From assembly GCA_951406725.2 (NCBI GenBank), contig OX597822.1:85870001-85934000 (forward strand): a stretch of 64,000 nt of DNA, read 5' to 3'. Below, in pieces: positions 34,863-50,008 of this stretch; the first letter of the stretch is position 1, and each line of letters opens with the position of its first letter. This stretch comes from Octopus vulgaris. Its lineage: Eukaryota. Under the pieces are notes generated by a model. That model was not told the origin of the DNA. It saw only the letters and a list, made by a program, of their open reading frames with translations, and searched no databases. Both the position numbers and the translations under genes were made by a program.

Positions 34863-36039
34863 GTAATTAATGAAATTAGAAATACCAAGTAATTAAAATT
34901 TGTTTTTCTTTCTTTCTATATTTGTTTATTGCTTATTTTTTTTATTTCCTTTTGCATCTGTTTTTAAATTGTACTTAACTTTTGCAAGTGTCATTGGCAT
35001 TGTTACTGCTAATGTTGTCCAGGAGATCGATGGAATATTAATGCCTGTCACTTTTTTATGTATTGTAGTGTTGTAAGTGCTATGTAGCAGTTTGTATATA
35101 TTAATGCAGCAGTTGACATGTGGCCATGGCTAGTCATTCCGCTTAGCTCGTCCTTCAGGATATCCAGAAATACCCCCCTCCTTAACAAACAAACAGCATT
35201 GAGTCACCAGTTGAGTTACTGAGGGCTCAACCATGCAGAGCTATACTACATTACACAGTTACCTTTTTTAAGTGATATCACCCACTAGAAACAGTAGCTT
35301 CATTCCCTCAAATCACACCCTACAGCCGACATATATATATATATATATATATAGTATTAATAATGATAAGGAGAATGGAGATTTTTCACATCCATAATTT
35401 TATTTACAGCATTCTTTTCTGGACCTACATGCATTTCAACTGCATTGATTGCACACTGTAGGATATGCAGACTGGTGTCATGTTCAGTGCAGTTCCTCTC
35501 TGCTATTTCAAAGTGAAACTGAAGGAATCAACAAACTGAATGAATAAAGTGTTTTTTAGGAGGTATGGGTGCTACAAAAGGACCAATGGGGTTAGCCAGC
35601 ATCTGAAAGTGAATTTAGAGAAAACATGGTAACTGCCAAGATAATATATCCCTTTAAGCTCGCTTTTGGATATATATATATGTATATATTTCCAAGAAAG
35701 TTAGAGGTTGTGAATCCAACCAACTAAGGGATAATATCTATCCAATATACTGCTGGTAGAAAACCCGATTATTAATACACAATTAACTACCGAGTGTCCT
35801 AAATTGCTATTACATTACAGAGTGTCCTAAATAGGTGAGGGTAAAGAGATATTTTACCATTAAATTATAGAGCAATAAGAAAATGGAGGGATCAATAGGT
35901 GTTTCATCAATTTTTAGACATTATATTATGTCAATTTATTTATTTATTTATTTATTTACTAAAATGACAATTACAAGAATATACATACATGTATAACATA
36001 TTATGCTTTACATATAAAATATAAAATATATAAAGATAC

Positions 36040-36540
36040 CAGTAATTATTAAATTACTGGTTAGTAGTTGAGCTGAAACTGATTTTTAAGTTATGTCTAT
36101 TGAAGAGCTTTCTGTAACTATGGTTGACTGGAAAATGTCTATCTATCAGTGCTAAGAAATGCTTGCCTATATTAAAGGTCACCTCGGGTGAGTAGGGGTG
36201 TGTGAACCAGATAGTTTTCCTGTTCCTATGTTTCCTCTTCTTTATAGTTGGACTGGTGGCAGGTGTATAGGTTCCTCGCTAAAACCACTATCTTTTAGAT
36301 CCTTATTATATACTGGGGCAACGCTATTAAAAATGTCCCAATCAGAGGAGAGGCTAGAAATTCCTTTGCTAATGTTTTTAACTAAATTTTTAAACACTAT
36401 GGGGGGATGGCAGGAACCTACATTAATATAACTAAGTCTATCATCAGGCTTCCTATAAGCTTTATAAATATTCTTATTTAGATCTAAGGATTTATTGCTC
36501 ATATAATTTTTTTTTAAATAATTTTTCTGTATTCTACCTT
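36040..36540 (-). mobile_element. Penelope-like element RT C-terminal remnant
   Basis: LDLNKNIYKAYRKPDDRLSYINVGSCHPPIVFKNLVKNISKGISSLSS..IFNSVAPVYNKDLKDSGF, homologous to 20322-20606. Confidence 0.85.
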
Positions 36541-37273
36541 CCACCCTGTATTTTTTCTGTGCGTATATAGATCTGCATATGGAATTTTTTGCACGCACAT
36601 GTGGATGTGTGCACCTGTGCAGGTATGTGCGTATATAGACATGTGTGTGCATGCATGCGAGTATGTGTGTATATAGACATGTTTTACTCTTATTGCTTAT
36701 TTTTAAAACTTTTTTTACATATTTTTCCATATTTTGCTTTTAGCCCTGTTTTTTCTTGTGTATGTGCGTATATAGACGTGTATATGAACCTTTTCTGTGC
36801 ACATGTGTGTGTGTGTGCAAGCGTGTATGCGAGTATGTATATATTTTTTGGTGAATGTGTAGGTGAGCATGTGTGTGTTTAAAGTCAGGGTGGATAAGTA
36901 TATACATATAGGCGCATGTACTTGGGTGTGACGGCACGCATGTGTATGTATGGACATGCGCACTTACACGATTACTATGAAGATTTTTACTCCCTTACCT
37001 TTACTCCCTCCTCTTACTTAGTGGTCATTCTAATAGCTCTTTTGTCTTAATAACGGTCAATCACACAGTAATTTCCCTTTGTTTTAATGAACATTTTCAT
37101 AGCTTTTTTTTGATGGCCCAATACTTGAAGAGATGCCGGCGTGGGTTTCCGCCCTGACATCCGAATCTCAGAGTTTTTTCATGGCTACCGAATAATTGTC
37201 ACATATTATATTTACAAATAAATTCCTCTATTTACATAATATCAACGTCTCTTTCATTCTTTTGTTGAAAACC

Positions 37274-37328
<55 letters not shown>

Positions 37329-37329
<1 letters not shown>

Positions 37330-37511
37330 GGGGTTACCCTGGATTTCCTGTTCATGGCATATCATCAGACCCCAAGATCTGTTGGCCTAAGACCTCTTTA
37401 AAATATCCTCTTTGAAATATTTTAAAGAGGTTTTATGCCAACAGGTCTTGGGGTCTGACAATATGCCATAAAGTTAAACCCTTTATGAACAGGAAACCCA
37501 AGGTAACCCCA
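37329..37511. ncRNA. Palindromic cassette of two outward-facing type I hammerhead motifs
   Basis: + arm: TGGGGT-CTGACAA(37455-37461)-stem II-GAAACCCAAGGTA-ACCCCA. - arm: TGGGGT-CTGATGA(rc 37362-37368)-..-GAAATCCAGGGTA-ACCCCA. The whole unit is an inverted repeat flanked by TA. Confidence 0.75.
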
Positions 37512-38083
37512 TAAACCTGCCTTCCTCAGTAAAATATCCATGTGTATATATATATATATATATATATATTCTTTTATTTTTTTACTTGTTTCAGTCATTT
37601 GGACTTACTATTTCTTACTCTACTATGCACACACACACACATGTGTGTGTGCATTGACTTGGCAGTTACTATAACGACATCAGCCACAATCATCTCACTG
37701 TTCTATCAAATTAATTGTCAAGTTGTCATCACTTCAACCAAGAGTTTTCTTATTTGGAGGTGATCAAAATGACAGTTACATATTCAACTAGTCACTGACT
37801 GAATTTTTTTCTTGGTGTCTCATTGGTTATTTTCCACCAATCACAACTTAAATGGTCTTTAGGTGCAACGTATTTGAATTGAAACCTGGAACATCTTGCG
37901 TCAGTGGAACAACAATAAATTGCAAAGGAGGTTACCTGGCAATTAAGGAATTTCAACTGGTCTAATTGAATCCATGGCACACATTCTCTCAACAGCTCCT
38001 GTTCCATTCTCTCTTTCTCTGTTTGTATTTAATGTCACACACACACACTAATGCAAATGAAATCTTTTTCATAATTTACATTA

Positions 38084-38241
38084 TTTACATTTGATGGATA
38101 TTTGTCCTCATCTTGTTTGTTGTTAACACAATGTTTCGGCTGATATACCCTCCAGTTGTTAATGACAAACAAGATGAGGACAAATATCTGTCAAATGTAA
38201 ACATTGTACATAATTCCACATCTCTTAAATATAGAACTGTA
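38084..38241. mobile_element. Inverted, rearranged copy of the tRNA-hammerhead element of 6455-6712
   Basis: Reverse complement of CTGGAGGGTATATCAGCCGAAACATTGTGTTAACAACAAACAAGATGAGGACAAATATC, followed by a forward copy of the same tail (hairpin 38084-38201) ending TAAATATAGAACTGTA. Confidence 0.8.
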
Positions 38242-38439
38242 AAATCTTATTTCACATTCATTCAAAGAGACTTTCCACATGTTATTCCTTACTTTTCTTT
38301 GAATGAACTATTTTTACTTCCCATACCAATTCTTTGAAATTCCAGCCACTTGGACATTTTATCCATTTCCTGTTCGTTCCTCATAATATTTAATTGCTCA
38401 TATTTCTTATATTAAATTCTTCAGCCTTTTTGTACATCT

Positions 38440-38727
<288 letters not shown>

Positions 38728-38775
38728 TTTACATTTTCTTTATAATTGAAAAAAATTATGTTTTACACCTTTCAG

Positions 38776-49145: not shown

Positions 49146-50008
49146 ATGACTGAGCCATGTGTTTTTAACACAGCATGTCTATATGAGATGTTATCCCAGG
49201 AAGAATACTATAGTATTTGGCCTATCAATGGTGTATATATATTAAGTATGATACACAGATGCCATACAGGATTAAAGGGAAACTCCTGGAACAACCTGGA
49301 CCTTACCTCAATGGGAGCAGACAATGCAAACTTTGCTTGGCTGAGAGGATAAGGATCCTAAAAAACTTTCTTGATCCGGTGGAGGGGGGCTTCTTAACCC
49401 CAAAGGTGAATTGTTTAGTTGGAGAGAAGATTCGTGTTGGGGACATGGAATTCCCCACTTACTGACTAGTCAATAGAAATCATACAAAAACTGATCTTTT
49501 GGGGGCACAACTAGAACCAGTCAAATGGAGATGACACCATCTCGCCCAGAAGGGGTTTCACTTCAAACAATTTCATTCCAAGGGATTTGTCACAACCTTA
49601 GCTGACCAAGACTGTATTCCAGCCTTCATTTGTAATGCAGATATGTGTCTCTGGCCAGTAGGTCTGATGACTAACTAGTATTACTAAGAGCATAAGAGGC
49701 ATGAAACCAATGGTAACTTTCTGACTAGCCATAACCTCACAGCATACCCAACCCAAGAGACATAACTCCTAACCTAATCACCTGGCCCTTTTTCGTTTCA
49801 CCACCTTTTCACAGCAACTGCAAACCAGTTGTGTTAAGTCACCTCCAACAATAGAAAGCAATCACCATATTCCCTTCCATATCGACTAACTCTGATGAGC
49901 GTAAGGTTATATAATTGGATTGTTACCTAACACTCTATTATATTCCTTGTACGAAACCGATTGGTATGATCAGCCATGATGGATATATAATGCTGTACAT
50001 TTTGGATA

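What the first reader, a model, noticed from the sequence alone, without database searches (positions are those of the whole stretch)
37329..37511. MITE-looking palindrome that is actually two head-to-head hammerhead ribozymes
Seen: the 183-bp unit is one inverted repeat flanked by TA. Each arm is a type I hammerhead with a perfect 6-bp stem I (TGGGGT/ACCCCA) and a GUA triplet, and the element ends exactly at the end of stem I'. The sense arm (in FTCD intron 3) has G8>A. The antisense arm keeps CTGATGA but lost the stem II loop; the stem II base is imperfect in both. Inference: a minimal ribozyme-only mobile unit able to cut transcripts from either strand, or an inverted pseudo-LTR footprint that repeat annotators would mislabel as a MITE.
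Basis: partly seen in the sequence, partly recalled or inferred. Interest (0 to 1): 0.75.

Follow-up and report, generated by a model that had tools for sequence, protein, structure and literature searches.

The report
Decayed Penelope retrotransposon stub, head-to-head
The hairpin and its two mirror-image hammerhead ribozyme motifs are really there, but they are two cut-down 3' ends of a Penelope-like jumping gene joined back to back, a pattern already described for that class, and both ribozymes are damaged and predicted to be locked in the hairpin, so this is likely an ordinary dead repeat.

Summary
The palindrome (fold z about -18) and both type I hammerhead motifs are confirmed, in FTCD intron 3. 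The unit is not ribozyme-only and does not end at stem I'. Family arms run on past stem I' (365 pattern hits versus 1 ending there), and so does this copy's right arm. The arm is the 3' end of a Penelope-like retrotransposon: it follows a GIY-YIG endonuclease fragment in 28 of 30 loci, and two loci hold RT, linker, endonuclease and ribozyme in a row. Motifs point to the Hydra clade. Head-to-head pairs span a continuum from stubs to kilobase copies, carry the 3' tail on one arm only (42 of 53), and usually abut (TA)n. This is the published insertion anatomy. Cores decay randomly (41 of 105 intact, 41.5 expected); G8>A is CpG decay. The hairpin beats the ribozyme fold by 46-66 kcal/mol. The left end here looks secondarily rearranged. 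One modest extra: 5' breakpoints cluster at an AT palindrome just upstream of the ribozyme. The scan noted the same kind of stub three times before, once in this genome.

The parts
37329..37406 (-). Left arm: 5'-truncated 3' end (pLTR) of a Penelope-like element, read outwards; model positions 466-562; lacks everything beyond stem I'
37329..37374 (-). Damaged hammerhead, - strand: stem I 37369-37374, core CTGATGA 37362-37368, stem II hairpin deleted (17 nt), GAAA 37344-37347, GUA 37335-37337, stem I' 37329-37334
37407..37418 (+). Centre junction: a short second copy of the end of the left arm, likely a repeated self-priming step
   Evidence: (D8); mechanism inferred
37417..37537 (+). Right arm: 5'-truncated pLTR without the 3' tail; family sequence continues ~26 nt past stem I'
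37449..37511 (+). Damaged hammerhead, + strand: stem I 37449-37454, core CTGACAA (G8>A) 37455-37461, stem II hairpin 37467-37487, GAAA 37493-37496, GUA 37503-37505, stem I' 37506-37511
37277..37328 (.). (TA)n tract at the left end (likely target site)
37546..37569 (.). (TA)n tract near the right end
37270..37278 (+). 9-nt inverted copy of the element's left end across the (TA)n; absent from the neighbouring family's other copies; likely scar of a local rearrangement
   Evidence: (I9)
34863..38774 (+). Host intron: third intron (coding exons) of formimidoyltransferase-cyclodeaminase (FTCD)

Best explanation
This is the shortest form of a Penelope-like retrotransposon insertion, likely of the Hydra clade: two 5'-truncated copies of the element's ribozyme-bearing 3' end joined head to head beside (TA)n, likely made in one integration event by fold-back self-priming and since decayed, with neither ribozyme predicted to cut. 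[quoted passage not shown] Inferred: the element's protein nicks (TA)n and reverse-transcribes from the 3' end; synthesis stops early; the strand folds back at an AT-rich palindrome ~35 nt upstream of stem I and is copied into an inverted arm. In the active parent the hammerhead, with a palindromic stem III, would work as a dimer between tandem pLTRs. At this locus a later rearrangement at the left (TA)n likely removed the left outer part, which is why that end happens to meet stem I'.
For: Sense arm downstream of the endonuclease fragment in 28 of 30 loci, tail behind it in 11, inverted arm upstream in 7 (three of the 30 are near-duplicates of one sequence). RT (YRDD), CxCX5C linker, endonuclease and ribozyme contiguous in L127 and L134. 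Head-to-head pair in 16 of 30 tail-selected and 11 of 20 core-selected loci. Of 53 pairs, 42 have the tail on one arm, 9 on none, 2 on both. (TA)3 at one or both outer ends in 45 of 53 versus 11% per random window. Arms of a pair agree at 223 of 265 subfamily-diagnostic sites (84%, 50% expected). Intact core in 41 of 105 arms versus 41.5 expected under independent decay. Contigs of four other runs show family copies continuing past the centre into the element's 3' UTR (table 7). Published anatomy matches: PMC8557442, PMC3846280, PMC4209133.
Against: No intact full-length parent or upstream direct pLTR flanking an ORF was found in the 15 longer stretches fetched; all ORFs were broken. This copy shows no tail on either arm, so which arm was primary is not shown. 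Non-CpG A/T core columns are slightly more conserved than non-core ones (0.96 vs 0.92, p=0.01; G/C columns p=0.07), and G8 is kept in 78% of arms versus 60-72% for G at three other CpG sites; I read this as constraint in the source lineages, but it is not zero. Only 22 of 53 pairs have (TA)3 at both ends. Four of 22 minimal stubs share the same simple centre junction.
Confidence: 0.92

Rival explanations
1. The stubs began as Penelope-like insertions, but some palindromic stubs were then re-copied as units (by the Penelope protein in trans or by a DNA transposase), forming a non-autonomous family.
For: 5' ends cluster at model positions 462-472: 15 of 50 arms with ends in 401-500, from 9 loci, in the two sets not selected for being palindromic (nominal p=2e-4, arms not independent). 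L002, L017, L018 and L105 share one simple junction. PMC3846280 reports pLTRs mobilising unrelated sequence in trans (passages).
Against: 15 of 22 minimal stubs carry individually different inserts or deletions at the centre and 3 more differ by 2 nt (read by eye). The shared junction is the plain fold-back at a natural AT palindrome, so it can recur. Ends are asymmetric. Breakpoints range from model 2 to 564.
Confidence: 0.05
2. A ribozyme-only unit that cleaves host transcripts from either strand and is kept for that at FTCD.
For: Both motifs are real; the right arm alone can adopt stems I-III at nearly no cost (-28.1 vs -28.2 kcal/mol); an intact family arm folds as a three-way junction at minimum energy (L049).
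Against: G8>A in one core, stem II deleted in the other. Hairpin favoured by 46.5 and 65.8 kcal/mol. No excess of intact cores. Published minimal PLE hammerheads did not cut as monomers in vitro (PMC4209133).
Confidence: 0.01
3. A true MITE of a Tc1/mariner-type DNA transposon with chance ribozyme-like motifs.
For: Long inverted repeat, TA-rich flanks, high copy number (1208 first-look candidates).
Against: The repeat's inner ends lead into RT and GIY-YIG sequence; outer ends are unequal; stems I and III show paired changes; 0 of 3000 shuffles match the descriptor.
Confidence: 0.01

Closest known systems
Hydra-clade Penelope-like elements (Craig et al. 2021, PMC8557442), e.g. Hydra-1_Obim and Penelope-13_HM
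   Same: C-terminal GIY-YIG endonuclease, CxCX5C linker, CxxC and CxH motifs, (TA)n targets, 3' hammerhead with palindromic stem III and 1-nt loop. Penelope-13_HM is listed with a 5'-truncated inverted copy and a hammerhead on both strands (supplement part 2).
   Different: The hammerhead sequence differs from that listed for Hydra-1_Obim, so this is another family. It has a low-complexity insert inside the endonuclease domain and a longer, bulged stem II. The copy here is only the ~210-bp end.
Inverted pLTR plus one-sided tail of endonuclease-positive Penelope elements (Arkhipova et al. 2013, PMC3846280)
   Same: Head-to-head inverted pLTR, tail on one pLTR only, palindromes at the inverted junction read as self-priming (passages).
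   Different: Here the ORF between the repeats is absent altogether; the tail is ~60-70 nt rather than ~31; no target duplication can be read in (TA)n.
Minimal hammerheads of metazoan PLEs (Cervera and de la Pena 2014, PMC4209133)
   Same: Type I, large helix II, extra base after A9, palindromic helix III, mostly in truncated copies; close pairs on opposite strands already reported in Schistosoma.
   Different: Lacks the conserved G10.1-C11.1 pair; stem I is 6 bp and extends through bulges.
Non-LTR retrozymes (bioRxiv 10.64898/2026.07.22.740005)
   Same: Short, non-coding, type I hammerhead, derived from PLE pLTRs (first fifth of the text read).
   Different: Retrozymes are direct tandem repeats; direct tandem arms were seen in only 5 of 98 loci here.

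Membership tests
Penelope-like element insertion (EN+) | Repeat is the 3' end of an RT plus GIY-YIG ORF | tested here: met
   28 of 30 endonuclease-anchored loci; RT to ribozyme contiguous in L127, L134. Assignment rests on motifs and homologs; Pfam gave no hit.
Penelope-like element insertion (EN+) | Variable 5' truncation with an inverted 5'-truncated copy at the 5' end | tested here: met
   53 head-to-head pairs with 5' ends from model 2 to 564
Penelope-like element insertion (EN+) | Tail extension at one end only | tested here: met
   42 of 53 pairs; this copy itself has no tail
Penelope-like element insertion (EN+) | Full-length copy with direct pLTRs flanking an intact ORF | tested here: inconclusive
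   None among 15 longer stretches; genome not searched exhaustively
Hydra clade | CxCX5C linker; CxxC and CxH around the conserved E and N; no CCHH | tested here: met
   Read in L127, L134, L074, L048 translations
Hydra clade | RWK and DKT motifs N-terminal of the RT | tested here: inconclusive
   Present in the intact homologs P0001 (54% identical over the query), P0004, P0010; in this family only a decayed DKT-position stretch in L127, which is truncated before RWK
Hydra clade | Placement in an RT tree with reference Hydra elements | not tested
   Reference sequences not held
Hydra clade | Insertion into (TA)n | tested here: met
   45 of 53 pairs at one or both ends; control 11%
Type I hammerhead ribozyme (family ancestor) | CUGANGA, GAAA, UH core with stems I-III | tested here: met
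   Majority letters at all core columns; paired changes in stem III (C-G 53, T-A 57, C-A 13, T-G 2) and stem I (A-T 61, G-C 29, G-T 29, A-C 6) among 136 arms, but these sites are linked by subfamily, so they count as about two events
Type I hammerhead ribozyme (this copy) | Intact core and stem II | tested here: not met
   G8>A on +, stem II deleted on -
Type I hammerhead ribozyme | Match to an Rfam hammerhead model | tested here: not met
Type I hammerhead ribozyme | Self-cleavage | not testable with these tools
   needs an assay
MITE (Tc1/mariner type) | Symmetric fixed termini and a uniform unit | tested here: not met
MITE (Tc1/mariner type) | Termini shared with a DDE transposase element | tested here: not met
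   Inner continuation is RT and GIY-YIG; no direct transposase search run
Non-LTR retrozyme | Direct tandem array of hammerhead units | tested here: not met
   5 of 98 loci with direct tandem arms; this copy is inverted

The most novel reading that the evidence does not exclude
An AT palindrome ~35 nt upstream of the ribozyme is a built-in fold-back site of this Penelope family. It stamps out many near-identical ~300-bp hairpin stubs, with templated re-priming scars at the centre that record the self-priming step directly. Some stubs may then be re-mobilised as a MITE-mimicking, hairpin-forming retro-family, and intronic ones such as this would be long dsRNA substrates for RNA editing or small-RNA silencing.
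Probability: 0.2. Interest if true: 0.5.

Novelty: new member of a known kind. Interest (0 to 1): 0.2.

Why it matters
Mainly as annotation: repeat pipelines would likely file these stubs as DNA-transposon MITEs, though they are retroelement ends. The formation of inverted pLTRs is called unresolved in PMC8557442 and PMC3846280. A family with many old independent junctions and a breakpoint hotspot is a ready dataset for testing self-priming models. The single copy in FTCD is probably inert.

Tried and rejected
Rfam: no hammerhead model hit this copy or four other loci; only sub-threshold miRNA-like hairpin hits. Pfam: no family for the RT or endonuclease fragments or for three intact homologs. 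BLASTP of the endonuclease fragment to P0001 was weak (E 0.003) because P0001 ends early in that domain. Sequencing runs: no RNA holder listed; one guessed-RNA run laid nothing; neither bears on expression. Laying DNA contigs could not show whether this exact insertion exists in related organisms, since paralogous copies and the (TA)n tracts broke the pieces. No intact parent in 15 stretches. 'Partner arm is the nearest arm' held in only 2 of 40 pairs; after ~8% decay per arm this test is weak, so diagnostic sites were used. Look-up of earlier findings by sequence gave nothing. Paper searches found no paper on this family or on such stubs in this lineage; the library lacks most subscription papers and Repbase/Dfam were not available, so the family may already be catalogued.

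Full report
Observation. Window 37329-37511 is one inverted repeat. It folds at -118.7 and -127.9 kcal/mol on the two strands, z -18.0 and -17.3, with 0 of 200 shuffles as stable. Each arm, read outwards from the centre, has a type I hammerhead layout. The + arm has core CTGACAA (G8>A); the - arm has CTGATGA but lacks 17 nt including the stem II hairpin. My descriptor matched 0 of 3000 shuffles of the right arm. The unit lies in the third coding intron of FTCD, 34863-38774. Rfam hammerhead models did not hit it or four other loci.

The ends are not as described. A DNA search of the own genome gave 1208 first-look candidates, 40 scored, 30 loci fetched, 21 distinct. The inverted repeat of the family runs about 25 nt past stem I' on both sides, and one arm carries a further tail of 60-70 nt before (TA)n. 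A pattern that continues past stem I' has 365 exact hits; the same pattern going into (TA)n has 1. Of 155 arm 3' ends, 3 fall at model 556-566, 56 at 586-612 and 64 at 636-660 (alignment ends can slide into TA tracts). In the window the right arm continues to ~37537 and only the left arm stops at stem I'. There a 9-nt inverted copy of the arm's end sits across the (TA)n (I9), and the neighbouring repeat has lost its last ~17 nt relative to most of its relatives. I infer a later local rearrangement; this is not shown.

The parent. A tail pattern had 115 exact hits; 30 loci were fetched in genome order. Three of them (L048, L049, L057) ran upstream into a GIY-YIG endonuclease C-terminus. Searching with that fragment gave 5707 candidates, 150 scored, 30 fetched. 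The window's arm lay in sense orientation downstream in 28 of 30, the tail in 11, an inverted arm upstream in 7, a direct arm upstream in 1 (L067, L068 and L073 are near-duplicates). L127 and L134 hold RT with YRDD, thumb, CxCX5C linker, endonuclease and ribozyme in a row, all broken. The RT fragment found 48 longer homologs among 1312 candidates; the best (54% identity) and two others viewed have RWK, DKT and CxCX5C, the Hydra-clade marks given in PMC8557442 (section 11 read). The second hit is an Octopus bimaculoides entry at 60% identity, so the host is likely an octopus (inference). Pfam recognised neither the fragments nor the homologs. No intact parent was found in 15 longer stretches.

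A continuum, not a unit. After dropping 27 overlapping or duplicate loci, 99 remained; L126 was left out of the counts. Head-to-head pairs occurred in 20 of 21 loci chosen by likeness to the window (biased), 16 of 30 chosen by tail, 5 of 27 chosen by endonuclease and 11 of 20 chosen by core. 5' ends range from model 2 to 564. Of 53 pairs, 42 have the tail on one arm, 9 on none, 2 on both. (TA)3 lies at one or both outer ends in 45 of 53 and at both in 22, against 11% for a random window. The arms of a pair agree at 223 of 265 diagnostic sites (50% expected) and are 84% identical versus 78% to other arms in 40 pairs: one template per insertion, though gene conversion would look the same. Among 22 minimal stubs, 4 share a plain fold-back junction, 3 differ from it by 2 nt, and 15 carry individual inserts or deletions, several being short re-copies of the arm end as in the window (read by eye). 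Loose ends in contigs of four other runs show copies continuing past the centre into the 3' UTR.

The ribozyme is real in the ancestor and decayed in the copies. All core columns have the canonical majority letter. Stem III is a palindrome with a 1-nt loop and switches C-G to T-A in step; stem I switches G-C to A-T via G-T. These sites are linked by subfamily, so they are about two events. An intact arm folds as a three-way junction with an extended, bulged stem I (L049; L111 folded stem III differently), which accounts for part of the sequence beyond stem I'. Intact cores number 41 of 105, 41.5 expected by independent decay. N7-G8 is a CpG: CG 39, TG 29, CA 18, AG 11 among those arms; by hand count of the first 100 of 286 pattern hits, CG 33, TG 38, CA 15. 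So the two window cores are the two deamination products of one CpG (inference). Against a purely neutral reading: G8 is kept somewhat more often than G at three other CpGs, and A/T core columns are slightly more conserved (p=0.01).

It is unlikely to cut. Forcing the hammerhead fold in the whole unit costs 46.5 (+) and 65.8 (-) kcal/mol. In a head-to-head pair each transcript makes the complement first, so folding order also favours the hairpin (follows from the layout). G8 is a catalytic core base (established knowledge; a G8C mutant is treated as catalytic in PMC11167929, passages).

Prior art. PMC8557442 (passages, section 11, supplement part 2 and a supplement search) describes inverted 5'-truncated copies, one-sided tails, (TA)n targeting and Hydra hammerheads, including an octopus family with a different hammerhead. 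PMC3846280 (passages) describes head-to-head pLTRs with junction palindromes and reads them as self-priming. PMC4209133 (parts 1-2 of 4) reports close opposite-strand hammerhead pairs and low activity. PMC8969392 (passages) lists inverted pLTRs as a PLE trait. Supplements of the retrozyme preprint were not seen. Three earlier notes of this scan reached the same reading on other DNA; I saw them after forming mine and count them as no support.

What is left. 5' breakpoints cluster at model 462-472, an AT palindrome ~35 nt upstream of stem I: 15 of 50 arms with ends in 401-500, from 9 loci, of 78 arms in the two unbiased sets. That explains why many stubs look alike and MITE-like. It is a modest, testable detail. 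Verdict: a new member of a known kind, interest 0.2.

Noticed in passing
window 36491-37267 (+), motif at ~37122-37185: 3' end of a second high-copy family (3255 first-look candidates, ~90% identity) with its own type I hammerhead and palindromic stem III, intact in many copies and decayed here; it also forms head-to-head pairs and ends in (TA)n. Likely another Penelope-like pLTR; no ORF link was shown.
   Followed up: partly
window 36054-36499 (-): Broken RT-thumb fragment of a Penelope-like element, 60% identical over 73 aa to P0001. Not shown to belong to the finding's insertion.
   Followed up: partly
window 38071-38214: Another long inverted repeat (58-nt arms) of a very high-copy family, with a degenerate hammerhead-core-like stretch in its loop on the - strand (seen by eye).
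   Followed up: no
window 49258-49402 (+): Fragment of the same family's endonuclease region, model 172-311.
   Followed up: no
L074, L088, L094, L130, L131 (endonuclease domain): A long, variable N/S/T-rich insert sits between the two halves of the GIY-YIG motif in this family, recalling the N-rich inserts described in rotifer Penelope ORFs.
   Followed up: no
P0002: A UniRef Octopus bimaculoides 'PH domain-containing protein' begins with ~170 aa of this element's RT; likely a gene-model fusion or an exonised copy.
   Followed up: no
L136 3666-6500 (+): An open frame of at least 945 aa with endonuclease and RT-like motifs of a LINE-type element, apparently young.
   Followed up: no
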